Shown here piece after piece: positions 522-61,740 of a stretch of 64,000 nt of DNA. Each line of letters opens with the position of its first letter. Position 1 is the stretch's first letter. Source of the stretch: Malacoraja senta (lineage: Eukaryota). Under the pieces are notes generated by a model, which saw only the letters and a list, made by a program, of their open reading frames with translations, was not told where the DNA came from and did no database searches. The DNA is taken from positions 22,756,001-22,820,000 of the forward strand of contig CM075989.1 in NCBI GenBank assembly GCA_038087875.1, given 5' to 3'. A program made the translations under genes and the position numbers.

Positions 522-944
522 AGGGCCCTGTCCCACTTTCACGAGGTAATTCACAAATTCTCCAGAGTTTTCCCCTTGATTCTAACTCGCAGAATGTTCA
601 TAACGAGTCCATAGGAGGTCGTAGGAGTCCGTGGATATATCGTAGCGGCCCGTTATGCCAGCCGTAGGTACTCGTGCAATCAGGTAAGTCGGGACGTTTT
701 TTCCAGCCCGATAAAAAATGTGCACGAGTAAAAAAAATGGTCGGGATGAAAGAAATTGCAACTTTTTACTCGTAAGGAGGGCATCGAAATAGTCGTGGGA
801 ATTCGTAGACATACTCGTAGGAGTTCGTGAACATAGTTGTGGAAGGTCGGAGGAGTTCGTAGATTAGCACGATCTTGATTTTGTTTTAGGTCCTCTAAAC
901 TCGGCAGAGGTTTTGAATTAAGTTGTGAAAGTGGGACAGGCCCT
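522..944. mobile_element. PIF/Harbinger-type MITE
   Basis: TIR AGGGC(C)CTGTCCCACTTTCAC / GTGAAAGTGGGACAGGCCCT; TAA on both sides (519-521, 945-947); non-coding interior. Confidence 0.85.
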
Positions 945-1009
945 TAAGGAACATTCTCCCGACTGCATGATATTTGAAAAGAAAAGTCGACTTTACATTA
1001 GACTTTCCA

Positions 1010-1297
1010 GAGACAACACGGAAGCAGTCCCATCGGCCCACCGAGTCCGCACCGACCAGCGATCACCCCGTACACTAGCACCACCCTGCACACACTTGGG
1101 ACAATTTACAATTTTCACCGAAGCCAATTAACCAACAAACCTGTACGTCTTTGGAGTGTGGGCGGAAACCGGAGATCCCGGAGAAAACACACGTGGTCAC
1201 GGGGAGAACGCACAAACTCCGTAAGGACAGCACCCGTAGTCAGGATCGAACCCGGGTCTCTGGCGCTGTGAGTCAGCAACTCGACCGCTGCGCCACT
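1010..1297 (-). mobile_element. HE1-like tRNA-derived V-SINE
   Basis: Reverse complement of A/B-box head (GTGGCGCAGCGG...GGTTCGATCC), V-domain (GTTCTCCCCGTG...TCCAAAGACGT) and CR1-like tail. Confidence 0.85.
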
Positions 1298-1494
1298 GCA
1301 AAAAGATAAGAAAAAGTAAAAACATACTCTGCCTGGACTGTAGAAAAACACCGGGAGCATAAAATTGGAAAAGGAAAAATCAACGTAAATAATTATAAAA
1401 GGTGGACAAAAATACTGGAGAAACTCAGCGGGCGAGGCAGCATCTATGGAGCGATGGAATAGGGCAATAATAGTTTCAATTATGAATAATTATA

Positions 1495-1757
1495 AACTAT
1501 TGCCTGGATTTGAGGAGAGGTTTGGCAAAGTTGGATTGTTTTCCCTAGATTGCCAGAGGTTGAGGGGAGACCTGGTAGAATTATTCAAAATTACGTGAGG
1601 TATAGATATGGTAGACAGTCAGGGTCTTTTATATATTTAATAGGAAGATGAGGAGCACCGTTTTTTACACAGAGGGCAATGCATATATGAACCAAGCTGC
1701 CAGCAGAAGGGGTTGATGCAGATACAATAACAATATTTACAAGATATTTGGACAGGA
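1495..1757 (+). mobile_element. Degenerate CR1-clade LINE 3' fragment
   Basis: GAGGGGAGACCTGGTAGAA...TTTTTTACACAGAGGG, similar to the CR1 ORF2 C-terminus seen in other copies. Confidence 0.6.
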
Positions 1758-1759
1758 TG

Positions 1760-1905
1760 ATGTGTAGGGAAGAACTACAGATGCTGGTTTAAATCGAAGA
1801 TAGACTCAAAATGCTGGAGTAACTCAGTGGCACAGGCAGCGTCTCTGGAGAGAAAGAATTGGTGACGTTTCAGGTCGATCGAGACCCTTCTTCAGACTGA
1901 GACTC
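1760..1905 (-). mobile_element. Penelope-like terminal repeat fragment with hammerhead-like core
   Basis: Reverse complement of CAGTCTGAAGAAGGGTCTCGA..CCTGAAACGTCACC...CAGCATCTGTAGTTCTTCCCTACAC. Confidence 0.75.
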
Positions 1906-1982
1906 AAGGGCAGGGGCAAAAAGCTGTTACACTTTTCTCCTCAATTTGAGCTGCAGTAGCTGAAGACATCAAAGCAATGGTA

Positions 1983-2270
1983 AGAGTGCTGGAGTAACTC
2001 AGCGGGTCAAGCAGCATCTGTGGAGAACATGGATAGGTGACGTTTCACAGAGTGCTGGAGTAACTCAGCGGGTCAGGCAGCATCTGTGGAGAACATGGAT
2101 AGGTGACGTTTCACAGAGTGCTGGAGTAACTCAGCGGGTCAGGCAGCATCTGTGGAGAACATGGATAGGTGACGTTTCACAGAGTGCTGGAGTAATTCAG
2201 CGGGTCAGGCAGCATCTGTGGAGAACATGGATAGGTGATGTTTCGGGTCGGGACCCTTCTTCAGACTGAT
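1983..2270 (-). repeat. 66-bp tandem array (4 units) derived from the Penelope-like terminal repeat, ending in a hammerhead-like core
   Basis: AGAGTGCTGGAGTAACTCAGCGGGTCAGGCAGCATCTGTGGAGAACATGGATAGGTGACGTTTCAC units start at 1983, 2049, 2115, 2181. Confidence 0.9.
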
Positions 2271-2379
2271 TGCATGGGTGGTGAAAAAATCTGGAAAAGA
2301 GCAAGAAAATATTATGTTAATTATGTTAATGAAAATATTATGTTAATTTTCTTTCTCCCCACCCCTGCCATCAGTAGAG

Positions 2380-2572
2380 TCAAGAGGAGTCCCGACCTGA
2401 AACGTCACCTATCCATGTTCTCCAGAGATGCTGCCTGACCCGCTGAGTTACTCCAGCACTCTGTGAAACGTCACCTATCCATGTTCTCCACAGATGCTGC
2501 CTGACCCACTGAGTACACCAGTATTTTGTGACCTTCCTTGGTAAACCAGCATCTGCGGTTTCTTGTTTCTAC
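2380..2572 (+). mobile_element. Penelope-like terminal repeat with a duplicated 66-bp unit
   Basis: GAAACGTCACC at 2399 and 2465; inverted relative to 1983-2270. Confidence 0.75.
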
Positions 2573-2919
2573 ATCAGTTCTGTGTAAGTTTGCCAAACCT
2601 CTCCTTTTACACCGGTTCTGTGTAAGATTCAGAGATTCTGGACTATCCTTGTCTGCATCTGTTCTTTCAGTCTGATCTTGGCTTAAGATACATTCACACT
2701 TGAGGTTTAGCTTTTCTTTCAGCTTCTCACAAACATTAATTAGAGAGGATAAGTCAGATAGCAAGGCATCACCTCATACAAAAAACAGCATGGAATTAGT
2801 TTCTTTCTCTCCGGCTCCTACACTCATTTACTCCACTTAATTCCAGATTCAAACCATACTTACACTATCAGAACTGTCGCTGATGAACAGCAAACCTGCT
2901 TTGCCCTACTGCTGTAGGA

Positions 2920-3515
2920 TGTGTGTGTGCATGTCTGTGTGAGCATACGTGTGTGTGTGTGTATGTGTGTGTGTGTGCATGTGGGTGTGTGTGCGTGTGT
3001 GTGTGTTCGTGAGTGTGAGAGAGTGTGTGTGGGTGTGTGCACATGCGTGTGTTTGTATATGTGTGTATGTGGGTGTGTGTTCGTGAGTGTGAGAGAGTGT
3101 GTGGGTGCGTGTGGGTGTGTGCGCATGGGTGTGTTTGTATGTGTGTGTGTGCGCGTGTGTGTGTGTGTTTGTATGTGTGTGTCCACGCGTGTGAGAGAGT
3201 GTGTGTATGTGTGCGCGTGCGTGTGTGTGTTTGTATGTGTGTGTGCGCAGGTGTATGTGTGTGTATGTGTGTGCGTGAGCGCTTATGTGTCTGCCTGCCT
3301 CTGTATGTGTATGTGTGTGTGTTCGTGAGTGTGAGAGAGTGTGTGTGGGTGTGCACATGCGTGTGTTTGTGTGCATGTGTGTTTGTATGTGTGTGTCCAC
3401 GTGTGTGAGAGAGTGTGTGTATGTGTGCGCGTGTGTTTGTCTGCGTGTGTGCGCACATATGTGTGTGTATGTGTGTGCGTGAGCGCTTATGTGTCTGCCT
3501 GCCTCTGTATGTGTG
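2920..3515. repeat. Degenerate (GT)n microsatellite with internal block duplication
   Basis: GT-rich tract; GTGAGCGCTTATGTGTCTGCCTGCCTCTGTATGTG occurs at ~3276 and ~3479. Confidence 0.95.
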
Positions 3516-3899
3516 ATATTTTCTGTATATCTGTCCATGTATCATTTACTGGCCTTTTATAGCATTCTCTTGCTTAGCTCGAAGTGTTCCTCTTCTCATG
3601 CCCATCGGTCCATTGCACTCTGTTTGAAATGTTTAGTTCCGTTTAGTTTGTTATTGTCATGTACATGGAGATACAGTGAAGGACTTGCTCCACCCGTCAA
3701 ATCATACTTTACAGAACAATTGTGCACAAGCCAAAGAGACTATTGAATCACAATGATTTACACCATTAAATGCGTGCAACTATGTCTGTGACTGAACCCT
3801 ACTCTCCTGCGCTGGTGTCTTTTTAAGAAGTGGTTATTTTTGAGTTATTTCGAGCACCACAACTGACAAAATGCCTGATGAAAGAAGAATGCCACCTTA

Positions 3900-4075
3900 C
3901 CCAATCAAATAATTCACCTGGAAACTTGTACGTCTTTGTGCAGGAGGGTGGAAGGAAACCGGAGAAAACCCACGTGGTCACAGGGAGAACGTACAAACTC
4001 CGTACCGACAGCACCCGTCAAACCTGGCTCTCTGTTGCCGTAAGGCAGCAACTCTACCGCTGCGCCACCGTGCCA
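3900..4075 (-). mobile_element. HE1-like SINE (partial)
   Basis: Head and V-domain on minus strand. Confidence 0.75.
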
Positions 4076-4771
4076 TCCTATTAGTATAAGTTGCATGTCA
4101 GGAGAAGGAAAAAATTGACCCGTGGAACTCAGAGTGTAAAAGCAGTGGACAACATGCGAGTACCAATTATCCAGTTGGTGTTCTGCTGAACTGATAAAGA
4201 CTTGCCAAAAAACACAGAGATATGTTCAATGCATCAGAACATCTACATTGCCTTCACCTTACAAGTCTCACCTCAAACTTCCTGATCTCCTCTCATGTAC
4301 ATTAACTAACATCATAGACCTTTCCACTGAGGCAGACTTTGCAAGTCATCCCTGAGAAGATCTTGATCCATGCCTGGGTCTTGTCCAGAATGGAAGGCAT
4401 AATTGAGATGATTCTGGCCATTTTATCTTATAGAGGTATACAAAATCATGAGAGGAGTAGATCGGGTAGACGCACAGAATCTCTTGCCCAGAGTAGGGGG
4501 AATCAAGAACCAGAGGACATGGGTTTAAGGTGAGGGGGGAAGGACTTAGTAGGTCTCCATGCTCTATGAGCCTATGACACAAGTCATCCTTTGTTAGTTT
4601 ACAAAATCTCAATTTTATTCCACTTTTTGACAACATTGTGAACACATTTTCCCACCAGTGATTGTAAAGTTCTGTATCAGCCATAAAGTCCTTTGGATCA
4701 CTCCAGGGTTATGAAAGACTTTATTTATCAGTGTCACAGGTAAAGAGCTGTCAAATATCATGTGTAGTGTA

Positions 4772-5118
4772 CAGAATCATGAGAGGAAAAGATCGGGTAG
4801 ACACAGAGTCTCTTGCCCAGAGTAGGGGCATCAAGAACCAGAGGACATAGGTTTAAGATGAGGGGCGAAAGGTTTAATAGGAATCTGAGGGGTAACTTTT
4901 TCACACAAAGGGTGGTGGGTGTATGGAACAAGCTGCCGGAGGAGGTAGTTGAGGCAAGTACTATTGCGTTTAAGAAACGTTTTAGACTGGAACATGGACA
5001 AGACAGGTTTAGAGGGATATGGGCCAAACGCAGGTCGGTGGGACGAGTGTAGATGGGACATGTTGGCCGTTGTGGGCAAGTTGGGTCGAAGGACCTTTTC
5101 CACGCTGTATGACTCTAT
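4772..5118 (+). mobile_element. CR1-clade LINE 3' end (SINE-partner tail type)
   Basis: Translates as ...SRTRGHRFKMRGERFNRNLRGNFFTQRVVGVWNKLPEEVVEA; tail GGGCAAGTTGGGTCGAAGG...CTATGACTCT; further pieces at 4430-4550 and 5185-5260. Confidence 0.85.
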
Positions 5119-6064
5119 CTGTGAGGAACGGAAAGGAACTGTCAACGTGTCGGGTCAAACCCCTGCACCAGGACCGATGACAATTTGTTGGGACATGTTG
5201 GCTGGTGCGGGCAAGTTGGGCCAAAGGAGTTGTTTCTACCATGTATGGCTCTATGACTCTATAACATTTTCCACCAGTGACTGTAAAGTTCTTTATCGGG
5301 CCCAAGATCCCTTGGATCACTCTCGGGTTATGAAAGTCTGCACAGAAATGCAAGCCTTTACTTATCTAGTCACATGTAAAGAGCAGTCACAGGCGGGTGT
5401 GAAGATGGGTCTCGACCCGAAACGTCACCTATTCCTTTTCTCCAGAGATAACTTCTGCCCCGCTGAGTTCCTCCAGCTTTTCTGTGTCTATCACAGGAGG
5501 AAGTCCGACAAGAGCTAAGGAACAGGGTCCCAGTCTGAATGACCACCTTGAGGAGATTGAGCAAGTGAGGTATTAATGGCCGAGTCCACAATTATGAATT
5601 TTGAATGCAATTTTTTATTTCCTCTGGTTTAATTAGGAAATACAACAAGCAAACTGATTGTCTGAAGGAGCTGTACACGTCTGCAAGCAACACAGAGAAA
5701 CTAATGAAGATCTGAGGCATAATTGATGTGAAGAACGTGGATTGGAACCAATTATTGTTCAATGGCCTATAATGAGCAGGTGGTACATCGGACCGTCTCA
5801 GTACGTAATCCTGCTGTGCAGAAGGTTATTTCTTCGCTGAATGCTAAAGATTTAATTCGTCAGATATACAGGCTTTTAATTACAGTATATTAGAACATTA
5901 ACATGCAAAGCTACCAAAGGAAATATTAAAAGATCCACACTTTCACTCCCTGTTAGCTATATTTCAATAATCTATGATAGCAATATGCTCTTGTTACCCA
6001 AGTTACAATTGTAATGAAGATTGGGGATAGTAGACACATTATCAGGCTGAGACATGCACTTAAA

Positions 6065-6322
6065 TAGAGTCATAGAGTGGATACAGTTGGCCCATCGGCC
6101 CAACTTGCCCACACCAGCCAACATGTCCCATCTACACTTGTTCCACTTGCCTTCATATGGCCCATATCCCTCCAAACTTGTCCTATCCATGTACCTGTCT
6201 AAATGTTTCTTAAACGTTGCGATAGTCCCTGCCTCAACTACCTCCTCCGGCAGCTCGTTCCGTACACCCCCACCACCCTTTGCGTGGAAAAAGTTACCCC
6301 TCAGATTCCTATTAAACAGATT
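6065..6322 (-). mobile_element. CR1-clade LINE 3' end
   Basis: FNRNLRGNFF...NELPEEVVEAGTIATFKKHLDRYMDR on minus strand. Confidence 0.85.
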
Positions 6323-6380
6323 TCCCAAAAATGCTGGAGGCTTTATTGAGAATTGTTGAGCAGGGCAGGAGTGATCCTAA

Positions 6381-6717
6381 TGGGCCTGTCCCACTTACGC
6401 GACTTTTTCAGCGACTGCTGGCACCCGTCATAGGTCGCTGCAGGTCGCCGAAAATGTCCAACATGTTGAAAATCCAGCGGTGACCAGAACAAGGTACGAC
6501 TCTTTGGGCGACTACTTACAGGCTTCACCCCGTGACATGGTCGCCAGGGTATCGCCTGTATGGTCGTGAGTCGTCTCCTCAGTCGCCCAAAGAGTCGTAG
6601 CATCTTTCTGGTCGACGCTGGATTTTCAACATGTTGAACATTTTCGGCGACCTGCATGACGGCGCTATGACGGGTGCCGGTAGTCGCCGAAAAAGTTGTG
6701 TAAGTGGGACAGGCCCA
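6381..6717. mobile_element. PIF/Harbinger-type MITE
   Basis: TIR TGGGCCTGTCCCACTTAC / GTAAGTGGGACAGGCCCA; TAA TSD at 6378-6380 and 6718-6720; long subterminal inverted repeats. Confidence 0.9.
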
Positions 6718-6852
6718 TAAGTTGTGCAATCCCATTCCTGCCTCTGGGCTGGCGATGGAAGCTTGTATTCTCAACAGTTTCAAGATGCAGAGAGTGAAGG
6801 GTGAGAATCAGAGGAGTATTCTCGTTCAATCAAGTGTTAGTCTCTTCTCACA

Positions 6853-7035
6853 CTGTAGGTAGACAAAAATGCTGGAGAAACTCAGCGGGTGAGGCAGCAT
6901 CTATGTGATGTTTCATGTCGAGACCTGAAACGTCACCTATTCCTTCGCTCCATAGATGCTGCCTCACCCACTGAGTTTCTCCAGCATTTTTGTCTACCTT
7001 CGATTTTTCCAGCATCTGCAGTTCTTTCTTAAACA
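6853..7035. mobile_element. Palindromic Penelope-like mini-insertion
   Basis: Inverted pair of terminal-repeat fragments flanked by duplicated CTTCTCACA (6844-6852, 7036-7044). Confidence 0.8.
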
Positions 7036-7099
7036 CTTCTCACATCCTAGGTCTCTTATCATCTCCAATCAGTCTTGGCAGAATGCTGTCAGCCATGTT

Positions 7100-7415
7100 T
7101 AGTTTAGTTTCGTTTCTAGCTTAGAGATACAGCACGCAAACAGGCCCTTCGACCCACCGAGTCCGCACCGACCAGCAATCCCCGCATACTTTCACAATCC
7201 AGCACACTGGGGGAAATTTACAATTACCCCAAGCCAATTAACCTACAAACCTGTACATGTTTGGAGTGTGGGATAGAACCTGAGATCCCGGTGAAAACCC
7301 ACACAAGTCACAGGAACAACGTACAAAATCAGTACAGGCAGCACCCGTAGTCAGGATCGAACCTGGGTCTCTGGCGCTGTAAGGCAGCAACTCTACTGCT
7401 GTGCCACCGTGCCGC
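7100..7415 (-). mobile_element. HE1-like SINE, near full length
   Basis: (GTTTA)n tail, V-domain and tRNA-like head on minus strand. Confidence 0.9.
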
Positions 7416-8462
7416 TCCGAATAATGTCGCCCTTTGCCCTTGTGAATGGCAAACATGGGATGATTATCGACGGATTCTTGCTCCTGCCCAAAGCGAGTCA
7501 AATGGCCCGTATTGTAAGCTCTATTATGCTTATATTGGTAGGAAAATTACAAAGTTATCATTTGGCGATTTTTTAATAACACGTTCCTTGTGTACTGTAA
7601 TACAGCAATTCGGTGTTATTCGAATAAATCTCTCTCGCAGTATAGCTCACCATTTGCAGCATGAGCTGGCTTAGTTGCATTGCTTGCAGCTGAGGCCAGA
7701 TCACTGGAGAAAAAATGCTTAGCAAGTTTTAAGTTTGCAGAATTAATGAATATCTACAAAAGACCACAGCAGCGTGTTTTCGCATTTAGCTTCCATTCTC
7801 CTCTCATTTGCCCTTCTTGTTTGTAACTGAAAGAGTTTTAACGCAGAAAGCCCTCAGATGTGTTGTATACAAGCGTTCTGATTGGTGGTATTATACTGGG
7901 GGAAAGAATGGAGGGTTTTGTTCGAATCTTTGGCATCCTTGTGTAAAGGAGTAGTCCTTTCATTCCCCCTTCTCCACTGCACTCAATAGTGCCAGCATTA
8001 ACCGCAGCAACTGCTGGCTGAGAAACACTTTGATGTGGGCCCCACTCACTGTCACAGATGGGCCCCCATTGCTGGGTGATGGTCGGATAAATAAGGGCAT
8101 GTGTGTGGGAGAATATGGGATGAAAGCAGGGTCCAGCCACGACCTGAACAGAACTCAGCCTGTTCATTCTTCCAACCCCAGCTTCTGATTTGGGAGTGTG
8201 CGGCACATTTGTAATCTGTTAGATCTTTACACTGACCATGAAGAAACCTTTCCCCACAATAAAAAAAATAGCCTTTTGTTCCTTTTATCTTTTACAATTC
8301 TCGAAACAAGGACACAGCAACACGTCCCTGTTTTCATTTTCCATTTTCGTTGTAAATGTACCCCAAAAAAAAGGATTAATCCAAGAGACATCTACTAGCC
8401 ATGGTCATAGATGTGGGTCAAACACTTGCACTTTTCACACCTCATTAATTTGGTCATATTAA

Positions 8463-8690
8463 AGGGCCTGTCCCACTAGGTGATTTTTTTCGGCGACTGC
8501 CGGCATCATTGACTGACGTATCAGGTCACCGAAAAATTAGCGGCGTGATGACGTATGAGGCGCGGCGTTTTTTTCAAGTGCCGCAACATTTTTTTTTGTC
8601 GCCGTGGATTTTGAAATGTTCAAAATCTTTGGCGACACTGATATATGACGGCGGCAGTCGCCGAAAAAATCGCCAAGTGGGACAGGTCCT
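8463..8690. mobile_element. PIF/Harbinger-type MITE
   Basis: TIR AGGGCCTGTCCCACT / AGTGGGACAGGTCCT; TAA left, TGA right. Confidence 0.85.
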
Positions 8691-9109
8691 TGACATGTTT
8701 TGTTAACATTCTGATTTAAATTCAGAAACAGCGGCATGAAGTGATTCCATATAAACTGTGTACCATTAACAGACTCTGATTAAAGAAGCTTTCTCTCTTT
8801 GGCAATTAAAGCCTTAACAGGTTAATTATACACACGGAGCAATTACAGTTGTCCACGTTGGGATTAGTGTGAATTTTTGATGTGCAAAACCGCAGCCAGT
8901 TATTAAGAGAAAACAAAAGTTAGGCTGCCCATAATTTGTGATTCACACAGGATGACTGTTAGACCATTGCATTCATATGTTGTTATTTCAGTCCAATTCA
9001 GTCCACTTCTATTGATCACCCATTAGGGTCCTTGCCTTCCAATAATATGATTCATTCAGTGCATAAAGGATGGCTGAGGAGATGGTGCTTCCTGGCAATG
9101 GTACATTAA

Positions 9110-9327
9110 AGGGCCTGTCCCACTTGGGCCTTATTTGCACGTCATTTACACAACATCATTTACATGGCGTGCATTACGCGTGCATGGCGCGCACATGATG
9201 CATGGTGAGGCGTGGTGGCGTAGGCAGTGATGCGCGGTAGCGCGCGGCACCCCAGGATTTGGGGATTCTCAAAACCTCGCGCGCCATCTGCGTGACGCTT
9301 AAATGAAGCCCAAGTAGGACAGGCCCT
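9110..9327. mobile_element. PIF/Harbinger-type MITE
   Basis: TIR AGGGCCTGTCCCACTTGGGC / GCCCAAGTAGGACAGGCCCT; TAA TSD on both sides. Confidence 0.9.
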
Positions 9328-9774
9328 TAAGAACTCACATTATATAATTTCATGAATACCACATAGGCTCGTCTAGTGAAAAAGTAGAGTAGGACATTAC
9401 ACAAATGCCTGTCACCAAAGCTAGTACTCATCCAAAGTATGATTGAAAACAGATAATATGTCAAAAATGAAATTGTCTCAGTATTTCCATAATCTGTGAA
9501 GCTATATCCATCAACTCCATTCCTTGTTGAATCTGTCTCTACACGCTTTTGCTCTCATTTGCAATTCTTACCAAGCTCATCCAGTATGTTCTCTGGCTGT
9601 TTCTATCACATGGGGTCACATTTCTGTTCAGGGATACAGTGGTGGAAGGAACTGCAGATGCTGCCGATGATACAGATGGGGCACAAAGTGCTGGGGTAAC
9701 TCAGCAGGTCAGTCGGCATCTCTGGAGAAAAGGAATAGGTGACGTTTCGGGTCAGATCCCTTCTCCAGTCTGGA

Positions 9775-10255
9775 GAGTCATGTGGTGTGGAAACAGGCCC
9801 TTCAGCCTAACTTGCCCGCGCCAACCAACATGCCCCATCTACTCTAGTCCCGCCTGCCTGCATTTGGCCCATATCCCTCTAAACCTGTCCTATCTAGGTA
9901 CCTGTCCAAATGTTTTTTAAATGTTGTGATAGTACCTCACTCAACTACCCCCTCTGGCAGCTCGTTCCATACACCCACCACCCTCTGTGAGAAAAAGTTG
10001 CCCCTCAGGTTCCAATTAAATCTTTCCCCACTCACCTTGGGTTCTTGATACCCATCGAGTCTACTCCACCATTCAATCATGGCTGATCTATCTCTCCCTC
10101 CTAACCCCATTCTCCTGCCTTCTCCCCATAACCTCTGACACCTACCCGTACTAATCAAAAATCTATCTATCTCTGCCTTAAAAAGATCCACTGACTTACC
10201 CTCTACAGCCTTGTGTGGCAATTAATTCCACAGATTCACCACCCTCTGACTAAAG
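9775..10255 (-). mobile_element. Two adjacent CR1-clade 3' fragments of different tail subfamilies
   Basis: GERFNWNLRGNFFSQRVVGVWNELPE (9775-10040) and PHKAVEGKSVDLFKAEIDRFL (10050-10255). Confidence 0.8.
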
Positions 10256-10323
10256 TCCATCTTTGGTGCAGGTTTTATCAAGCATTCCTCAAGGCAAACC
10301 AGATGAAGGCTGCCTTGTAAACA

Positions 10324-10858
10324 GGGGATCTTATAGAAACATATAAAATTCTTAACCTTTAAGAAGGAACGTTTAAGAAGCTGGAAAATCAAAGGTACAC
10401 AAAAATGCTGGAGAAACTCAGCAGGTGAGGCAACATCTATGGAGAGAAGGAAATAGGCAATGTTTCGGGTCGAAACCCTTCTTCAAATTCTTAAGGGATT
10501 GGACAGGCTAGATGCAGGAAAATGTTCCTGATGTTGGGGGAGTCCAGAACCAGGGTTCACAGTTTAAGAATAAGGGGTAGGCCATTTAGGACTGGGATGA
10601 GGAAAAACCTTTTCACCCAGAGAGTTGTGAATCTGTGGAATTCTCTGCCACAGAAGGCAGTGGATGCCAATTCACTGGATGTTTTCAAGAGAGAATTAGA
10701 TATAGCTTAGGGTTGACGGAATCAAGGGATATGGGGAGAAGGCAGGAACGGGGTACTGATTGGGGATGATCAGCCATGATCATATTGAATGGCGGTGCTG
10801 GCTCGAAGGGCCGAATGGTCTACTCCTGCACCTATTTCCTATGTTTCTATGTTTCTAT
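10324..10858 (+). mobile_element. CR1 LINE 3' fragment interrupted by a Penelope-like mini-insertion
   Basis: GDLIETYKILK...ESRTRVHSLRIRGRPFRT...; insertion 10356-10484 flanked by duplicated AAATTCTTAA; (TTTCTATG)n tail. Confidence 0.85.
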
Positions 10859-11630
10859 TTCATAATGCCTCTGCCTTGGTTTGAATGTTATTTTCACGGT
10901 AGACATTTATGCTGACCTGTGCAAGAACCAGTTGTGACAAAGTGCCCCTTGTAAATTAGGGGGCAAAGTTCAGGTGCCAAAGGTCAGGGGTGAGGCAGCT
11001 ATATAAGGACAGCGGCCCTTGTTGACTGCTTCAAATGACCTTCCCTGAGTTTGTGTGAGCGCTGCTTTTGTTTCTATTAGTAGTGGTATGGATCGAGCAT
11101 GGTCGGAGACCAGAGGGGTCAGGGGTATGAGTGTTGGGAAGCCAAGGAGGATCTATAACTGCTTGCAGGCCTGACCGTGTGACAATTTCTTTGACACATT
11201 TTCGAGCTAAACATTTCACATGAAGTACCCAGACCCCCAGGGAAAGGAATCACAGCGACTGGGAAATACATTACTTGTTTTAGCAAATCAATGATGAACT
11301 CAATCTCCACACGGCATATCATCCATACTGGACACTCCCTTTACCAGTTACATATATATCAATGCACACAAACAATATACATCTGGAGAAAATCACCCAG
11401 CTGATACTCGAACCATAAGAATTATCACTTTGGTACAGTCTCCCTAATTACAGACAGGCAAACAGATATAGACCCATATTGGCAGGTTGATCATTTCACC
11501 ACTTTTTCACATTAACTGACACTAACCATAAGCATTGAGCTCTACAGTAAATAACTTCACCTTTTAGTTTAGTTGAGAGATACAGCGTGGAAGTAGGCCT
11601 GTTCTCTCACAATTCCTCATCTCCCGTCAT

Positions 11631-15039: not shown

Positions 15040-15434
15040 CACAGAGTGCTGGAGTAACTCAGCGGGTCAGGCAGCATCTGTGGAGAACACGGATAGGTGA
15101 CGTTTCACAGAGTGCTGGAGTAACTCAGCGGGTCAGGCAGCATCTGTGGAGCGAAGGAAATGGGCAACCTTTTGGGCCGAAACCCTGAAGGAAATAGGCA
15201 ACGTTTCGGCCCGAAACCCTTCCGGGTTTCGGCCCGAAACGTTGCCTATTTCCTTCGCTCCATAGATGCTGCCGGAACATGGACAGGTGACGTTTCACAG
15301 AATGCTGGAGTAACTCAGCGGGTCAGGCAGCATCTGTGGAGAACATGGATAGGTGACGTTTCACAGAGTGCTGGAGTAACTCAGCGGGTCAGCCAGCATC
15401 GCTGGAGAACATGGATGGGTGACACTTCTTCAGA
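15040..15434 (-). repeat. 66-bp tandem array of Penelope-like repeat with a nested second-subfamily palindrome
   Basis: Same unit as 1983-2270; 15150-15272 carries the GGGTTTCGGCCCGAAACGTTGCC variant. Confidence 0.8.
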
Positions 15435-23860: not shown

Positions 23861-24753
23861 GGAATAGCTCCCTGGACACACCCATGAGGGGCCATGACCG
23901 AGAGGGGCCTAAGAAGTTTACCAAAAATGGTAGAATTACAAAATGTTTGCAAAATTGCAAATGTTTATCGGATTTATTTGGCACAGATTAGACTTTTCTT
24001 CAAATATGCTTATCTTGTATTTCAAGGAATTTTATAGATATCACAGTTAAAAGAATGAATCCCCTAACGGTCACAATTCAAGTCAAGTCAAGTCAAGTCT
24101 ATTTGTCACATACACATACGAGATGTGCAGTGAGATGAAAAGTGGCAATGCTCGTGGACTTTGTGCAACAAAAAACAAACAACAAACTACAAACAGAATG
24201 GAAGAACAGAATCACATATTCTTTTACATATTAAATATTGTGGGCGGAAGGAAAAAGGGGAAAAAAACAGGTGGAAAAAAAAAATTCCATGTCATTCCCA
24301 GACTCAGCAGAACACAAAGTGGTTGAGATAGAAAACCTGCCTCTGTTTCTAACACCAAGGATGTCAAAAACAGAATGGGAGATGAAAGAGCCTGAAGAAG
24401 GGTCTCGACCCGAAACGTCACCCATTCCTTCTCTCCAGAGATGCTGCCTGTCCTGCTGAGTTACTCCAGCATTTTGTGTCTGCCCGGTTTAAACCAGCAG
24501 TTCCTTCCTATTCATGAAAGTATCAAAGCTGCTTTACTTCCAAACTGTCTGATTGTCAAAGACAAAACTTGTTCTTACAGTCATGGAATCTTACAGCATG
24601 GAAACAGGCCCATCGGCCCAACTTGCCCACACCGACCAACATGTCCCACTACACTAGTGCCACCTGCCTGTGTTTGGCCCATTTCCCTCTAAACCTGTCC
24701 TATCCATGTACCTGTCTAATTGTTTCCTTAACGTTGCAATAGCCCTTGCCTTT

Positions 24754-24807
24754 GGGGTGGGAGATTGCAACCTTCACGCGGCCCGCCCTGTTTCAACGAA
24801 TGCAATC
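24754..24807 (+). ncRNA. Predicted minimal HDV-like self-cleaving ribozyme
   Basis: P1 GGGGTGG/CCGCCCT with G1-U wobble; P2 GATTGCA/TGCAATC; P3 ACC/GGC (one mismatch); L3 TTCACGC; J4/2 CGAA. Confidence 0.75.
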
Positions 24808-24888
24808 AACCTGGCACGCACAATCAAATGGAACAAGTTGTCCTACAACTTTAGGCTGTGCACGCCATACGCAAGAAGAAGAAGAAGA
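24754..24888 (+). mobile_element. Second copy of the HDV-headed SINE
   Basis: Ends CACGCCATACGCAAGAAGAAGAAGAAG; sits inside a minus-strand CR1 fragment (24580-24750, 25085-25235). Confidence 0.8.
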
Positions 24889-25299
24889 CCCCTAGTTCAT
24901 TGATTGATTGGATAGCATGCAAAACAAAGCTTTTCACTCTACCTCCGTCTTGAAGATAGTGGAGTCAGGGGATATGGGGAGAAGGCAGGAACGGGGTACT
25001 GATTGGAGATGATCAGCCATGATCACATTGAATGGCGGTGCTGGCTTGAAGGGCCAAATGGCCTGCTCCTGCACCTATTGTCTATTGCCTCAACTACCTC
25101 CTCTGGCAGCTCGTTCCATGCACCCACCACCCTTTGTGTGAAAAAGTTACCCCTCAGATTCCTATTAAATCCTTCCCCCTTCACCTTAAACCTGTGCCCT
25201 CTGGTTTCCGATTCTCCTACTCTGGGCAAGAGACTCTTGTTGAAACGTTGTACAATTCAGATAATAGGATGGTCCACTGGGAGTGAGGTGCAGGAGTTA

Positions 25300-36622: not shown

Positions 36623-36819
36623 AACTGCGCACAAATACATGCACGGAAACACACACAGATGCACCGTCAGATTCAGATTGGCATGGTCCTGAGTTGAGCA
36701 AAAACATAGAACAGTACAACACAGGAACACTCCCTTCAGCCCATCTTGTCTGTGGTGACCATGATGCCATTTTAATGGAACCCATCTGCCTGTACATGGT
36801 CTGCATCCCTTTATGCCCG

Positions 36820-37394
36820 ATGGGATGAGATGGGATGAGATGGGATGAGATGGGATGAGATGGGATGAGATGGGATGAGATGGGATGAGATGGGATGAGA
36901 TGGGATGAGATGGGATGAGATGGGATGAGATGGGATGAGATGGGATGAGATGGGATGAGATGGGATGAGATGGGATGAGATGGGATGAGATGGGATGAGA
37001 TGGGATGAGATGGGATGAGATGGGATGAGATGGGATGAGATGGGATGAGATGGGATGAGATGGGATGAGATGGGATGGGATGGGATGAGATGGGATGAGA
37101 TGGGATGAGATGGGATGAGATGGGATGAGATGGGATGGGATGGGATGAGATGGGATGAGATGGGATGAGATGGGATGAGATGGGATGAGATGGGATGAGA
37201 TGGGATGAGATGGGATGAGATGGGATGAGATGGGATGAGATGGGATGAGATGGGATGAGATGGGATGAGATGGGATGGGATGGGATGGGATGGGATGGGA
37301 TGAGATGGGATGAGATGGGATGGGATGAGATGGGATGAGATGGGATGAGATGGGATGAGATGGGATGAGATGGGATGAGATGGGATGAGATGAG
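36820..37394. repeat. (ATGGGATGAG)n decamer tandem array, ~575 bp
   Basis: Near-perfect alternation of ATGGG and ATGAG pentamers. Confidence 0.97.
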
Positions 37395-38139
37395 ATTGGA
37401 TTAGAACAGTATAGCACAGGAATAGGTCCTTCAACCCACAACATCTGAATGGGCTGTTTTACCGTGTATCTTCCAATTAATCAATCAATCAATAAACAAA
37501 TACCAATACCTTAATTAGCACGGTTAGCACGGACTGGTTAGCATGAAACAAAAGCTCTTCACTTTACCTCGGTACACGTGGCAATAAACTAAACTAAACT
37601 AACTGCAATAAGAACATTGATTGAATTGAAAGACACAAATTGAAAACAAGCCATTCAGCCCATCGAGACCATGATGTCCATCAAACACCCGTTCATACTA
37701 GTTCTATTTTATCCCACTTTTGCACGTACATACTCCACACCAGCAACAATTTACAGAAGCCACATAAACCTACAAACGCGCACGTCTTTGGGATGTGGGA
37801 GGAAACAGGAGCACCTGGAGGAAACCCGCATGGTAACAGGGAGAACGCGCAAACTCCACACAGACAGCAACCAAGGTCAGAATGGAACCCGGGTCTCTGG
37901 CACCGTGAGGCAGCAGCTGTGCCACTGTGCCACCCATAAGTACATAGTAAGTAGGAGAATGAATAAACCATTCAGCCCCTCAAGCTAGCCCCACCGTTCG
38001 ATATGTGCATTGGTGGTCTACCCCAGACCTCCTCTCCTCTTCTGCACTAGTTCCCTAAGACCAGCAGTTCCTTGATCCTTCCAAAATCTATTCACTTCCT
38101 CTTTAAATTCCCCCAATGATCTAGAATCTGTTGAGAAGA

Positions 38140-59135: not shown

Positions 59136-60001
59136 ATCTGTTTTTCTTTCTCTTCACTCACGGGACAAGAAATGGTTAAGAACAAGGGGACTTCTTCTCA
59201 GTCTTAATGGAGATGGTGGAAGAATCCAAGGGCTGCACAGTCGGGGGGTGGAGGTTGTGCTTCCAGGGACGAGGGGAAGCTGACTGAGGTAGGTTGGTGA
59301 TCAAAGTCTCATTCCATCAACAGCAACAAGGTTAAAAATAAAATTCCCTTTAATTGTTTGTACAAATTGTTCATTCAATATAAATCCCACAAAACATTCA
59401 TGACAACATGTATTTCAAACATTTGGTTACTCTTGTGAATACTGAATTATTGAAAAAGATTGTAAAAAGGACGAGAGCATTATATCTAGACTATAATTTT
59501 CTACAATGAGTTGCTACAGGTTTTACACTTAGTAATTCCACAGTCGTACAAGATTCAAATTTCCCCTAATAAATAATTTAATGTAATGTACAATGCCAAG
59601 TGTTTCATTTACGCATTGTGGAAGTGTTTTACTTCAGTTTCCACCAACAGAATATCAATAAATGAGATAGCCATCACGTTATGTTCCGATGGGTTAGCCT
59701 GTATGAACACACCTGCCATCTTGCCAGCCAACACCATTTATATCGGTTTAGGTTGAGCAAGCTGGGACTCTATTCCTTGGAGCACAGGAGGATGAGGGGT
59801 GATCTTACAGAGGTGTATAAAATCATGAGAGGAATAGATCGGGTAGACGCACAATGTCTATTGTCCAGAGTAGTGGAATCGAGAAGCAGAGGATATAGGT
59901 TGAAGGTGAAGGTGATGGGGGAAAGATTTAATAAGAATTCCAAGGGTAACTTTTTCAGGCCAAGTGGGGTGGATGTATGGAAGGAGCTGCCAGAGGAGGT
60001 A

Positions 60002-61327
60002 CATAGATACATAGATACATAGAAATTAGGTGCAGGAGTAGGCCATTCAGCCCTTCGAGCCTGCACCGCCATTCAATACGATCATGGCTGATCATCCAAC
60101 TCAGTATCCCGTACCTGCCTTCTCTCCATACCCCCTGATCCCTTTAGCCACAAGGGCCACATCTAATTCCCTCTTAAATATAGCCAATGAACTGGCCTCA
60201 ACTACCCTCTGTGGCAGAGAGTTCCAGAGATTCACCACTCTCTGTGTGAAAAAGTTTTTCCTCATCTCGGTCTTAAAGGATTTTCCCCTTATCCTTAAGC
60301 TGTGACCCCTTGTCCTGGACTTCCCCAACATCGGGAACAATCTTCCTGCATCTAGCCTGTCCAACCCCATAAGAATCTTGTACGTTTCTATAAGATCCCC
60401 TCTCAATCTCCTAAATTCTAGCGAGTATAAGCCAAGTCTATCCAGTCTTTCTTCATATGAAAGTCCTGACATCCCAGGAATCAGTCTGGTGAACCTTCTC
60501 TGCACTCCCTCTATGGCTATAATGTCCTTCCTCAGATTTGGAGACCAAAACTGTACGCAATACTCCAGGTGTGGTCTCACCAAGACCCTGTACAACTGCA
60601 GTAGAACCTCACTGCTCCTATACTCAAATCCTCTTGCTATGAAGGCCAACATACCATTCGCTTTCTTCACTGCCTGCTGCACCTGCATGCCTACTTTCAA
60701 TGACTGGTGTACCATGACACCCAGGTCTCGCTGCATCTCCCCATTTCCTAATCGGCCACCATTTAGATAATAGTCTGCCTTCCCGTTTTTGCTACCAAAG
60801 TGGATAACCTCACATTTATCCACATTATACTGCATCTGCCAAACATTTGCCCACTCACCCAGCCTATCCAAGTCACCTTGCAGTCTCCTAGCATCCTCCT
60901 CACAGCTAACACTGCCCCCCAGCTTAGTGTCATCCGCAAACTTGGAGATGTTGCTTTCAATTCCCTCGTCCAGATCATTAATATAAATTGTAAATAGCTG
61001 GGGTCCCAGCACTGAGCCTTGTGGTACCCCACTAGTCACTGCCTGCCATTGTGAAAAGGACCCGTTTACTCCTACTCTTTGCTTCCTGTTTGCCAGCCAG
61101 TGCTCTATCCACATCAATACTGAACCCCCAATACCGTGTGATTTAAGTTTGTATCCTAATCTCTTATGTGGTACCTTGTCGAAAGCCTTCTGAAAGTCCA
61201 GATACAACACATCCACTGGTTCTCCCCTATCCACTCTACTAGTTACATCCTCGAAAAATTCTATAAGATTCGTCAGACACGATTTACCTTTCGTAAATCC
61301 ATGCTGACTTTGTCCAATGATTTCACC
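60002..61327 (-). mobile_element. Young 5'-truncated CR1 LINE
   Basis: 3' UTR with (ACATAGAT)n tail and an uninterrupted RT reading frame. Confidence 0.95.
60101..61327 (-). CDS. CR1 ORF2 reverse transcriptase domain and C-terminus (5'-truncated, no native start)
   Basis: SQHGFTKGKSCLTNL, YLDFQKAFDKVPH, GVPQGSVLGP, KFADD; frame open from 61327 to the stop at 60101. Confidence 0.93.
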   Translation of the reverse strand, partial: GEIIGQSQHGFTKGKSCLTNLIEFFEDVTSRVDRGEPVDVLYLDFQKAFDKVPHKRLGYKLKSHGIGGSVLMWIEHWLANRKQRVGVNGSFSQWQAVTSGVPQGSVLGPQLFTIYINDLDEGIESNISKFADDTKLGGSVSCEEDARRLQGDLDRLGEWANVWQMQYNVDKCEVIHFGSKNGKADYYLNGGRLGNGEMQRDLGVMVHQSLKVGMQVQQAVKKANGMLAFIARGFEYRSSEVLLQLYRVLVRPHLEYCVQFWSPNLRKDIIAIEGVQRRFTRLIPGMSGLSYEERLDRLGLYSLEFRRLRGDLIETYKILMGLDRLDAGRLFPMLGKSRTRGHSLRIRGKSFKTEMRKNFFTQRVVNLWNSLPQRVVEASSLAIFKRELDVALVAKGIRGYGEKAGTGY

Positions 61328-61340
61328 AGGTAGTTGAGGC

Positions 61341-61740
61341 CAAAGATCCTATAGCAAGCAAGATAGATCACTCGACGAAAAAGACGTAGTACGGTCATGG
61401 GCAGATTTATGGGTAATTTTCGGCCCCATTTCCGTAACTGGCTTCCGTCTCCGCACCAAAGATCCCATAGCGGAGCAAAGATAACTAGTGCGGAGACGGA
61501 AGCCGGTTACGGAAACATCCTCGTAAAAATAAAAGTTCTTTGGTAAAAATCTTCTCCTCATTTTCAGAATTATAATTTATTAACACAAACTGTTCCCCCG
61601 CAACGTTGATTACACTGCGAGTCGGGTCGGGTTACGGAAATGGATGAAAAAAAGGCCCACGTTCCGCTCCGTTGCGTACTACATGTCAGCCCATTGCATT
61701 TAGAAGGAGAGGTCTATCTTGCTCCGCTATAGGATCTTTG
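61341..61740. mobile_element. MITE, possibly hAT superfamily
   Basis: TIR CAAAGATCCTATAGC..AGCAAGATAGA / TCTATCTTGCTCCGCTATAGGATCTTTG; flanks GTTGAGGC and GTTGGGGGC (imperfect ~8-bp TSD); internal TIR copy at ~61457. Confidence 0.8.

What the first reader, a model, noticed from the sequence alone, without database searches (positions are those of the whole stretch)
24754..24888. A ~135-bp SINE whose head is a 54-nt minimal HDV-like ribozyme
Seen: GGGGTGG-GA-GATTGCA-ACC-TTCACGC-GGC-CCGCCCT-G-TTTCAA-CGAA-TGCAATC. This orders exactly as the HDV nested double pseudoknot: 7-bp P1 starting with a G1-U wobble, perfect 7-bp P2, P3 (one A-C mismatch in this copy), L3 matching the TYCHCGY consensus, one G for P1.1, a vestigial P4 and the catalytic C in CGAA. 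About 80 nt follow, ending CCATACGC(AAG)n. Known: HDV-like ribozymes process the 5' ends of R2, RTE and Ingi/L1Tc retrotransposons. Inference: a promoter-less SINE that cuts itself out of read-through transcripts and borrows an Ingi/Vingi-like RT. I cannot tell whether it has been described for this lineage.
Basis: partly seen in the sequence, partly recalled or inferred. Interest (0 to 1): 0.92.

Follow-up and report, generated by a model that had tools for sequence, protein, structure and literature searches.

The report
Retroposon family headed by HDV-like ribozyme
This stretch is one worn copy of a short mobile element, present thousands of times in this animal genome, whose first 54 bases fit the fold of a self-cutting RNA (HDV-like ribozyme) that would trim the element's own front end; the kind is known, this example seems not to be.

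Summary
Window 24754-24888 is one copy of a 135-145 bp retroposon.

- **Copy number:** 5,708 heads lie within 3 mismatches of the 54-nt consensus, and 425 are identical to it.
- **Ends:** copies end in (AAG)n. Of 54 full-length copies, 48 have target-site duplications, and in 42 the duplication abuts the first G.
- **Fold:** the first 54 nt order as P1-J1/2-P2-P3-L3-P3'-P1'-G-(vestigial P4)-CGAA-P2'.
- **Consensus:** That descriptor gave 0 hits in 270 Mb of surrogate sequence.
- **Window copy:** it is decayed, with an A-C mismatch in P3.
- **Body:** a stable hairpin (z = -4.0).
- **Spread:** the family occurs under five coded organism labels.

Not shown:
- self-cleavage;
- covariation (0 compensatory pairs, because the copies are too alike);
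- a match to Rfam models;
- transcription.

No autonomous LINE sharing either end was found in six junction tests, so the "Ingi/Vingi RT" idea has no support.

Non-autonomous elements with 5' HDV-like ribozymes are already known (R2 SIDEs, NARTc, SIDER). This is a new member of a known kind. It is notable for its minimal ribozyme, its high copy number and its missing parent.

The parts
24754..24807 (+). 54-nt head: candidate minimal HDV-like ribozyme. This copy is decayed, with an A-C mismatch in P3.
   Evidence: The consensus fits the hdv-looseP4 descriptor (PMC4870747, supplement Fig. S11). 425 identical heads in the genome.
24754..24760 (+). P1 5' strand GGGGTGG. The predicted cleavage site is 5' of G 24754.
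   Evidence: Pairs with 24783-24789. 98.5% of cells are paired in 29 copies. Target-site duplications abut this G in 42 of 48 copies with a clear duplication.
24763..24769 (+). P2 5' strand GATTGCA
   Evidence: Perfect 7 bp with 24801-24807. 99.5% of cells are paired.
24770..24782 (+). P3-L3-P3': ACC TTCACGC GGC here, ACC TTCACGT GGT in the family
   Evidence: 28 of 29 copies have GGT. T at 24779 in 98.8-99.8% and T at 24782 in 96-98% of contig depth in four runs. L3 fits TYYHCGY.
24783..24790 (+). P1 3' strand CCGCCCT, plus G 24790 for P1.1
   Evidence: The descriptor element 'RN' is met by GT.
24791..24796 (+). Vestigial P4 / linker: TTTCAA here, TTTCGA in most of the family
   Evidence: G at 24795 in 61-80% of depth. 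Too short for a P4 helix, so the 'stem P4' descriptor is not met.
24797..24800 (+). J4/2 CGAA, with the candidate catalytic C at 24797
   Evidence: Fits CNRA. At 24798, the 'N' position, G>A or G>T reaches 3-13% of depth. No change at 24797 reached the 10% listing threshold.
24801..24807 (+). P2 3' strand TGCAATC
24813..24866 (+). Body hairpin. Outer stem is GGCGTGCACA / TGTGCACGCC in the family (two mismatches in this copy: AC at 24816-24817). Inner stem is AAGTTGT (24835-24841) / ACAACTT (24845-24851) with loop CCT.
   Evidence: on the long-form copy L029: MFE -23.9 kcal/mol, z = -3.98, 0 of 200 shuffles fold as well. That it is the RT-recognition element is inferred.
24865..24888 (+). 3' end CCATACGC followed by (AAG)5A
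   Evidence: The tail length varies among copies and is followed by the target-site duplication.

Best explanation
Window 24754-24888 is a decayed copy of a non-autonomous non-LTR retroposon. An intact (source) copy is made of three modules:
1. a 54-nt P4-less HDV-like self-cleaving ribozyme;
2. a roughly 55-65-nt hairpin;
3. CCATACGC(AAG)n.

Proposed cycle:
- An intact copy is transcribed as part of a longer RNA, or from a start upstream of it.
- The ribozyme folds into the nested double pseudoknot and cuts 5' of G1. The released RNA therefore begins exactly at the element's first base.
- A LINE reverse transcriptase, still unidentified, recognises the 3' hairpin and/or the (AAG)n tail and copies the RNA into a nicked target (target-primed reverse transcription). 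This produces duplications of about 8-20 bp and occasional 5'-truncated copies.

Shown: the repeat family, its exact ends, the duplications, the truncated copies, the fit of the consensus to the ribozyme architecture, and the stability of the hairpin.

Inferred: catalysis, co-transcription, what the RT recognises, and which RT it is.
For: Family size and spread:
- 2,021 first-look candidates; the 40 scored are 89-100% identical.
- 425 exact heads and 5,708 heads within 3 mismatches, on both strands of many contigs.
- the family occurs in runs under five coded organism labels, with 781-11,052 contigs laid in each of the four runs laid. Its borders are sharp, and the letters beyond them are unrelated from contig to contig.

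Retroposition:
- of 60 loci examined, 54 hold full-length copies. Of these, 48 have a duplication of 8 nt or more (at most 1 mismatch), and in 42 it abuts the first G.
- 5'-truncated copies with their own duplications (L039, L041, L042, L044, L048, L050).

Fold:
- 98.8% of 492 pair cells form standard pairs, against 24-47% when partners are slid by 1-3 columns.
- the consensus fits P1 (7 bp, R..Y), P2 (at least 6 bp), P3 (3 Watson-Crick bp), L3 TYYHCGY, RN and CNRA.
- all 35 descriptor hits in 290 kb of loci are heads of this element, and there were 0 hits in 270 Mb of surrogate sequence.
- all four common variants inside the head are compatible with the fold. 24784 C>T gives G-U. 24785 G>A turns U-G into U-A. 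24795 lies in the P4 linker. 24798 is the N of CNRA.

No other head type:
- Searches found no tRNA, 5S, 7SL or snRNA likeness.

Precedent from papers:
- R2 SIDEs join a 5' ribozyme to a LINE 3' end (PMC3414825, abstract).
- NARTco and SIDER ribozymes cleave at their +1 base (PMC4035085, passages).
- Six LINE clades carry 5' self-cleaving ribozymes, and RTE, Ingi, Vingi and R2 give bipartite non-autonomous forms (PMC5786205, passages).
Against: - No cleavage data exist.
- Rfam models do not recognise the head. HDV_ribozyme RF00094 scores 16.3 bits (E = 5.9) against a gathering score of 50 on the window copy. A consensus copy gave no HDV hit at all at E up to 10, and nothing reached gathering score in the window.
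- There is no compensatory change in any of the 17 pairs. The copies are too alike for this to count for or against.
- Nested MFE folding of the head is no better than shuffles (z = 0.31; whole element z = -0.47). Pseudoknots are not modelled there.
- P4 is only a 6-nt linker.
- Some trypanosomatid sequences with an adequate HDV-like fold were inactive in vitro (PMC4035085, passage).
- Transcription was not shown. The runs laid were contigs, and their RNA labels were guesses.
- No partner LINE was found.
- I set P1 to 7 bp from recall. The extracted text of the supplement prints fewer letters for that helix.
Confidence: 0.65

Rival explanations
1. It is an ordinary retroposon whose 5' end is a transcription start from its own internal promoter. 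The HDV-like drawing would then be a coincidence, or a fold that no longer cuts. The head might instead act as a promoter or as a protein-binding 5' UTR.
For: There is no catalytic evidence. Rfam models are below threshold or silent. There is no covariation. The nested fold is not unusual. In L1Tc the same 77 nt act as both promoter and ribozyme (abstract starts of PMC3383444 and PMC4035085), so a promoter role cannot be excluded.
Against: The descriptor gave 0 hits in 270 Mb of surrogate sequence, yet it starts exactly at the element's first base. No Pol III-type head was found. All common variants in the head keep the fold.
Confidence: 0.2
2. It is a bipartite, internally deleted derivative of an autonomous ribozyme-headed LINE (of the RTE, Vingi/Ingi or R2/R4 kind) and is mobilised by that parent. 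The parent is rare, diverged or missing from this assembly. This refines the best explanation rather than opposing it.
For: PMC5786205 (passages) reports that bipartite non-autonomous LINEs come from RTE, Ingi, Vingi and R2 and usually keep the parent's 5' end, possibly because of a ribozyme. The long subfamily carries a direct repeat (ATCAAATA..ATCAAATA) at the place where a deletion junction could lie.
Against: Six anchored pattern tests across the element found only truncated, deleted or transposon-interrupted copies of the element itself (followed up). No other (AAG)n-tailed family was seen in 350 kb of sampled genome. These tests need near-exact anchors of 17-29 nt, so a parent more than about 10% diverged, or one with few copies, would be missed.
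Confidence: 0.4
3. One reading: the reverse transcriptase is borrowed from an Ingi/Vingi-like LINE.
For: The only support is analogy. L1Tc/Ingi elements carry HDV-like ribozymes, and Vingi gives internally deleted derivatives (PMC5786205, passages).
Against: No Ingi/Vingi element was sought by protein or found by shared ends. The RT fragments met near copies belong to other LINEs. One example is window 60104-61348 (-), which has a (TCTATGTA)n tail. From recall, RTE tails are described as AT-rich trimer-to-pentamer repeats, which would fit (AAG)n at least as well.
Confidence: 0.1

Closest known systems
R2 SIDEs (Short Internally Deleted Elements) of Drosophila (Eickbush and Eickbush 2012, PMC3414825; abstract read)
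   Same: A short non-coding element built from a 5' HDV-like ribozyme joined to a LINE-type 3' end. It is propagated by target-primed reverse transcription with borrowed proteins.
   Different: SIDEs insert only into rDNA and are described as rare. Their parents (R2, R1) are known, and the R2 ribozyme is large (about 184 nt, PMC6765202 passage). This family is dispersed genome-wide with more than 5,700 heads. Its ribozyme is 54 nt with almost no P4, and no parent was found.
NARTc/NARTco, RIME and SIDER elements of trypanosomatids with the Pr77/L1TcRz HDV-like ribozyme (PMC3185411 and PMC3383444, listings; PMC4035085, passages)
   Same: Dispersed non-autonomous elements whose first bases are an HDV-like ribozyme that cuts at +1. 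They are flanked by target-site duplications.
   Different: Those are protist elements. Their 77-nt hallmark begins with C1, and it also acts as a promoter. The parents (L1Tc/ingi) share both ends with them. There is no sequence likeness to the present head; the Rfam scan showed only a weak HDV-model match.
HDV-like ribozymes at the 5' ends of RTE, Baggins, R2, R4, R1, LOA and Ingi LINEs (Webb 2009 and Ruminski 2011, not held here; known only through PMC6765202 and PMC5786205 passages)
   Same: The same nested double pseudoknot and the same role, freeing a promoter-less retroelement RNA from a co-transcript. PMC6765202 also states that some non-autonomous SINEs use hammerhead or HDV-like ribozymes.
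   Different: Those ribozymes head protein-coding LINEs and mostly have a P4 helix. I could not read the primary papers, so I cannot say whether a vertebrate short element like this one is listed in them.
Minimal HDV-like ribozymes of the human microbiome and theta ribozymes of gut phages (Riccitelli 2014, seen only in reference lists; preprint 10.1101/2023.06.13.544163, abstract)
   Same: A double pseudoknot of about 50 nt with a reduced P4.
   Different: Those are bacterial or phage RNAs, and the theta ribozymes lie next to tRNAs. This one heads a retroposon in an animal genome.

Membership tests
HDV-like self-cleaving ribozyme | P1 of 7 bp starting at the cleavage site, first pair R-Y (G-U) | tested here: met
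   GGGGTGG / CCGCCCT. 98.5% of cells paired in 29 copies. The 7-bp length is from recall; the extracted supplement text prints fewer letters.
HDV-like self-cleaving ribozyme | P2 of at least 6 bp whose 3' strand follows J4/2, which makes the double pseudoknot | tested here: met
   GATTGCA / TGCAATC, 7 bp, 99.5% of cells paired
HDV-like self-cleaving ribozyme | P3 of 3 Watson-Crick pairs enclosing L3 = TYYHCGY | tested here: met
   The family consensus is ACC TTCACGT GGT: 28 of 29 copies and 96-99.8% of contig depth. The window copy itself fails, with an A-C mismatch.
HDV-like self-cleaving ribozyme | A purine after P1' for P1.1, and J4/2 = CNRA with the catalytic C | tested here: met
   G 24790 and CGAA at 24797-24800
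HDV-like self-cleaving ribozyme | P4 helix | tested here: not met
   Only TTTCRA (6 nt) lies between P1.1 and J4/2. It is accepted by the 'loose P4' descriptor but not by the 'stem P4' one. From recall, P4 is dispensable in minimal forms.
HDV-like self-cleaving ribozyme | Match to curated covariance models (Rfam RF00094 and related) | tested here: not met
   16.3 bits against a gathering score of 50 on the window copy. No HDV hit at E up to 10 on a consensus copy. Nothing at gathering score in the window.
HDV-like self-cleaving ribozyme | Covariation that supports the helices | tested here: inconclusive
   0 of 17 pairs have a change on both sides. 8 of 17 pairs never vary, and the shuffles equal the observed values. 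The copies are young and evolve neutrally after insertion.
HDV-like self-cleaving ribozyme | Site-specific self-scission 5' of G1 | not testable with these tools
   There is only the indirect sign that 42 of 48 duplications abut G1.
Non-LTR retroposon moved by target-primed reverse transcription | Dispersed copies, variable target-site duplications, a 3' simple-repeat tail, and 5'-truncated copies | tested here: met
Classical SINE | Head derived from tRNA, 7SL, 5S or snRNA with an internal Pol III promoter | tested here: not met
   No such Rfam match at E up to 10. ARAGORN found nothing.
SIDE / bipartite non-autonomous LINE | 5' and 3' parts shared with an autonomous LINE of the same genome | tested here: inconclusive
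   Six junction-anchored pattern tests found no such LINE. A diverged or rare parent would escape them.

The most novel reading that the evidence does not exclude
A self-sufficient 'ribozyme retroposon' with no surviving parent. On this reading, a 54-nt P4-less HDV-like ribozyme plus a 3' hairpin-(AAG)n tail is all the RNA needs. With no promoter or LINE of its own, it would hitch onto host transcripts and an unrelated reverse transcriptase. It has reached more than 5,700 copies, and runs under five organism labels hold it. The 425 identical heads suggest recent or ongoing activity. It would be the smallest natural eukaryotic HDV-like ribozyme and the first high-copy one heading a short element in a vertebrate-type genome.
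Probability: 0.3. Interest if true: 0.7.

Novelty: new member of a known kind. Interest (0 to 1): 0.5.

Why it matters
If the head cuts as predicted, this family shows how small a retroposon's working parts can be: a roughly 50-nt self-processing 5' module and a 3' hairpin with a simple-repeat tail.

That bears on three questions:
- how elements without a promoter spread;
- what minimal HDV-like ribozymes do in eukaryotes, since the minimal forms named in the papers I saw are from microbiome and phage sequence;
- how RNA templates for retrotransposon-based gene insertion might be designed. 5' and 3' UTR modules of RTE and Vingi elements are already used for this (PMC13708176, passages).

The thousands of naturally mutated copies also form a ready-made mutational series for the ribozyme. 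If the head does not cut, this is simply one more unclassified short retroposon.

Tried and rejected
1. **Partner LINE by shared ends.** I used patterns that anchor on a stretch of the element and demand non-element letters beside it.
   - After the ribozyme: 8 hits, all deleted copies. One of them, L034, is a head-only mini-copy.
   - After the long-form repeat: 1 hit.
   - Before the ribozyme-proximal body: 6 hits, indels or truncations.
   - Before the inner hairpin: 24 hits, truncated or rearranged copies.
   - Before the last 26 nt: 31 hits. Many are copies interrupted by a TIR element. Two are one locus assembled twice.
   - Before the last 17 nt: 2 hits with 1-nt insertions.
   - The pattern was mis-designed, because the consensus itself costs 2 mismatches. 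Its 2,759 matches serve only as a rough copy count.

2. **Other (AAG)n-tailed families.** None was seen in 350 kb of held sequence.

3. **RT and endonuclease ORFs near copies**. These belong to unrelated LINEs.

4. **Composite copies.** I considered that the TIR-interrupted copies were a retrotransposed composite. I rejected this because different inner sequences, in both orientations, sit at the same TTA.

5. **Laid runs**. All were contigs and the RNA labels were guesses. They say nothing about transcription, RNA 5' ends or cleavage. No raw-read run was offered.

6. **Earlier notes of this scan**. Nothing relevant.

7. **Papers not held**: Ruminski 2011, Webb 2009 and Kojima 2011. Their supplements or tables might list a similar element.

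8. **Literature searches for a prior description**. No paper in the listings joins an HDV-like ribozyme with a short element of fish or other vertebrates. Dfam and Repbase could not be searched.

9. **** timed out and was replaced.

Full report
**1. The observation**

Counting G 24754 as position 1:
- P1: GGGGTGG (1-7) pairs with CCGCCCT (30-36), with G1-T36 and T5-G32 wobbles.
- J1/2: GA.
- P2: GATTGCA (10-16) pairs perfectly with TGCAATC (48-54).
- P3: ACC (17-19) faces GGC (27-29), with one A-C mismatch.
- L3: TTCACGC.
- After P1' come G37, then TTTCAA, then CGAA (44-47; the C is 24797).

About 65 nt follow, then CCATACGC and (AAG)5A, ending at 24888. This order of strands is the nested double pseudoknot of HDV-like ribozymes.

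**2. It is a repeat family with exact ends**
- A search of the window's own 1.94-Gb assembly gave 2,021 first-look candidates. The 40 that were scored are 89-100% identical over nearly the full length.
- The 54-nt consensus head occurs 425 times without any change and 5,708 times within three mismatches, on both strands of many contigs.
- I examined 60 loci: the 30 best whole-element hits, plus 30 chosen only by their tail. Of these, 54 hold a full-length copy.
- Of those 54, 48 have a target-site duplication of at least 8 nt with at most one mismatch. In 42 of the 48 the duplication ends immediately before the first G.
- The window copy's own duplication is unclear.
- 5'-truncated copies with their own duplications exist (L039, L041, L042, L044, L048, L050).
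- These are the marks of target-primed reverse transcription by a LINE enzyme.
- Public runs under five coded organism labels hold the family's words. In the four runs laid, 781 to 11,052 contigs matched. Depth falls to almost nothing outside 24752-24889.

**3. The consensus repairs the window copy**
- In 28 of 29 aligned copies the P3 region reads ACC TTCACGT GGT.
- In the four laid runs, T replaces the window's C at 24779 in 98.8-99.8% of depth and at 24782 in 96-98%.
So is TTTCGA, with G at 24795 in 61-80% of depth.
- The window copy also carries two mismatches in the body stem (AC at 24816-24817, where the family has GT). It is a decayed copy, not a source.

**4. How good is the ribozyme fit?**

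I took the published 'hdv-looseP4' descriptor from supplement Fig. S11 of PMC4870747. It specifies:
- P1 with R..Y ends;
- J1/2 of up to 50 nt;
- P2 of 6 bp;
- P3 of 3 strict Watson-Crick pairs;
- L3 TYYHCGY;
- RN after P1';
- a free P4 region;
- CNRA before P2'.

I coded it with a 7-bp P1. That length is from recall of the HDV and CPEB3 ribozymes, because the extracted supplement text prints fewer letters for that helix.

Results:
- The consensus fits.
- The window copy fails, but only at P3.
- In 30 loci chosen by tail alone, 23 have a head and 8 of the 23 still fit.
- In 290 kb of fetched loci there were 35 hits, and all are heads of this element.
- There were 0 hits in 270 Mb of first-order Markov surrogate sequence made from the window.
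- Each hit starts at the element's first base, which is where such a ribozyme cuts.
- On 29 copies, 98.8% of pair cells are standard pairs, against 24-47% with slid partners.
- All four variants that exceed about 10% of depth inside the head are compatible with the fold. 24784 C>T gives G-U. 24785 G>A turns U-G into U-A. 24795 lies in the P4 linker. 24798 is the free N of CNRA. This is weak support only.

**5. What speaks against it**
- No pair shows a change on both sides (0 of 17), and the shuffles equal the observed values. Copies of one young family that evolve neutrally cannot show covariation, so this test is empty rather than negative.
- Rfam does not recognise the head. Nothing reached gathering score.
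- RF00094 scores 16.3 bits (E = 5.9) against a threshold of 50 on the window copy. A consensus copy gave no HDV hit at E up to 10.
- Nested folding is unremarkable (z = -0.47 for the element; z = 0.31 for the head), but it cannot see pseudoknots.
- P4 is reduced to six bases.
- In trypanosomatids, some sequences with an adequate fold were inactive in vitro (PMC4035085, passage).
- Catalysis is therefore inferred, not shown.
- Transcription is not shown either. All runs laid were contigs, and their 'RNA' labels were guesses.

**6. The rest of the element**
- After the head, the body folds into one long hairpin.
- Its outer stem is GGCGTGCACA / TGTGCACGCC. Its inner stem is AAGTTGT / ACAACTT with loop CCT.
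- On a consensus long-form copy the MFE is -23.9 kcal/mol, z = -3.98, and 0 of 200 shuffles fold as well.
- A common subfamily carries a 10-nt direct repeat (…AATCAAATAAGATCAAATAG…).
- A stable 3' hairpin followed by a simple-repeat tail is what 'stringent' LINE enzymes recognise in their own RNAs (established knowledge). That it plays this role here is inference.
- No tRNA, 5S, 7SL or snRNA likeness was found. The element therefore lacks the head that defines a classical SINE.

**7. Who supplies the reverse transcriptase?**
- I looked for a LINE sharing either end, using six patterns. Each anchors on the element and requires foreign letters next to the anchor, at positions spread from the ribozyme's 3' edge to the last 17 nt.
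- Every hit I followed up was a truncated, deleted or interrupted copy of the element itself.
- No other (AAG)n-tailed family appeared in 350 kb of sampled sequence.
- The RT fragments near copies belong to other LINEs. One is in the window at 60104-61348 (-), with a (TCTATGTA)n tail.
- The tests need near-exact anchors, so a rare parent or one more than about 10% diverged would be missed.
- The 'Ingi/Vingi' suggestion is therefore unsupported. [quoted passage not shown]

**8. Comparison with what is known**
- The idea is not new. R2 SIDEs join an R2 ribozyme to an R2 or R1 3' end (PMC3414825, abstract).
- NARTc/NARTco, RIME and SIDER carry the L1Tc ribozyme and cut at +1 (PMC4035085).
[quoted passage not shown] It also says that hundreds of intergenic HDV-like copies with conserved downstream and varied upstream sequence were seen in the first genome-wide search (PMC6765202, passages).
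- I could not read that primary work.
- Differences here: the ribozyme is minimal (54 nt, almost no P4), the family is dispersed in thousands of copies under five coded organism labels, and no parent was found.
- My literature searches listed no paper describing such an element in fish or other vertebrates. Dfam and Repbase were out of reach.

**9. Verdict**

The stretch is best read as a decayed copy of a ribozyme-headed non-autonomous non-LTR retroposon, which makes it a new member of a known kind. My confidence that source copies really self-cleave at G1 is about 0.65. Interest is moderate (0.5): a clean, high-copy, minimal example that is directly testable at the bench, but not a new principle.

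Noticed in passing
window 24851-24853 (the TTA in CAACT-TTA-GGCTG); loci L093 (- strand 60-415), L094, L096, L097, L098: The same TTA inside different copies of the element has been hit independently by TIR elements with ends AGGGCCTGTCCCAC...GTGGGACAGGCCCT and a 3-bp TTA duplication. At least three different inner sequences occur, in both orientations. This looks like a target hot spot for PIF/Harbinger-like MITEs (the family name is from recall).
   Followed up: partly
L034 1471-1541: A head-only mini-copy: the 54-nt head plus 8 nt plus a short (TG)n run, flanked by a 14-bp duplication (tgcaagttgttggt). An RNA with almost nothing but the ribozyme was therefore still inserted.
   Followed up: partly
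window 60000-61348 (- strand): A LINE fragment with an open RT frame of 415 aa (Pfam RVT_1, 87 bits), followed by three copies of TCTATGTA. This is a CR1/L2-style tail unrelated to (AAG)n.
   Followed up: partly
window 24573-24740 and 24930-25090: The copy sits inside other interspersed repeats. The downstream one (…GTCAGGGGATATGGGGAGAAGGCAGGAAC…) recurs in L095. L025 holds another copy of the element in the same upstream repeat family at a different position.
   Followed up: no
window 36819-37396: An array of 58 copies of the 10-mer GATGGGATGA with 98% matches. It lies where GC skew peaks at 0.29.
   Followed up: no
window 1983-2244, 2398-2521, 15275-15423: Tandem 66-bp units (…CTGGAGTAACTCAGCGGGTCAGGCAGCATCT…) in both orientations. 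The same unit appears in the flanks of many fetched loci.
   Followed up: no
L099 (C12) and L100 (C866): Two contigs carry the same 611-bp locus without a single difference. This is probably one locus assembled twice. L027 and L028, about 85 kb apart on C1, likewise share the copy and its flanks.
   Followed up: no
L089 68-1099 (+): An open 344-aa Tc1/mariner-type transposase frame (HTH_Tnp_Tc3_2, Sleeping Beauty HTH and DDE_3 domains).
   Followed up: no
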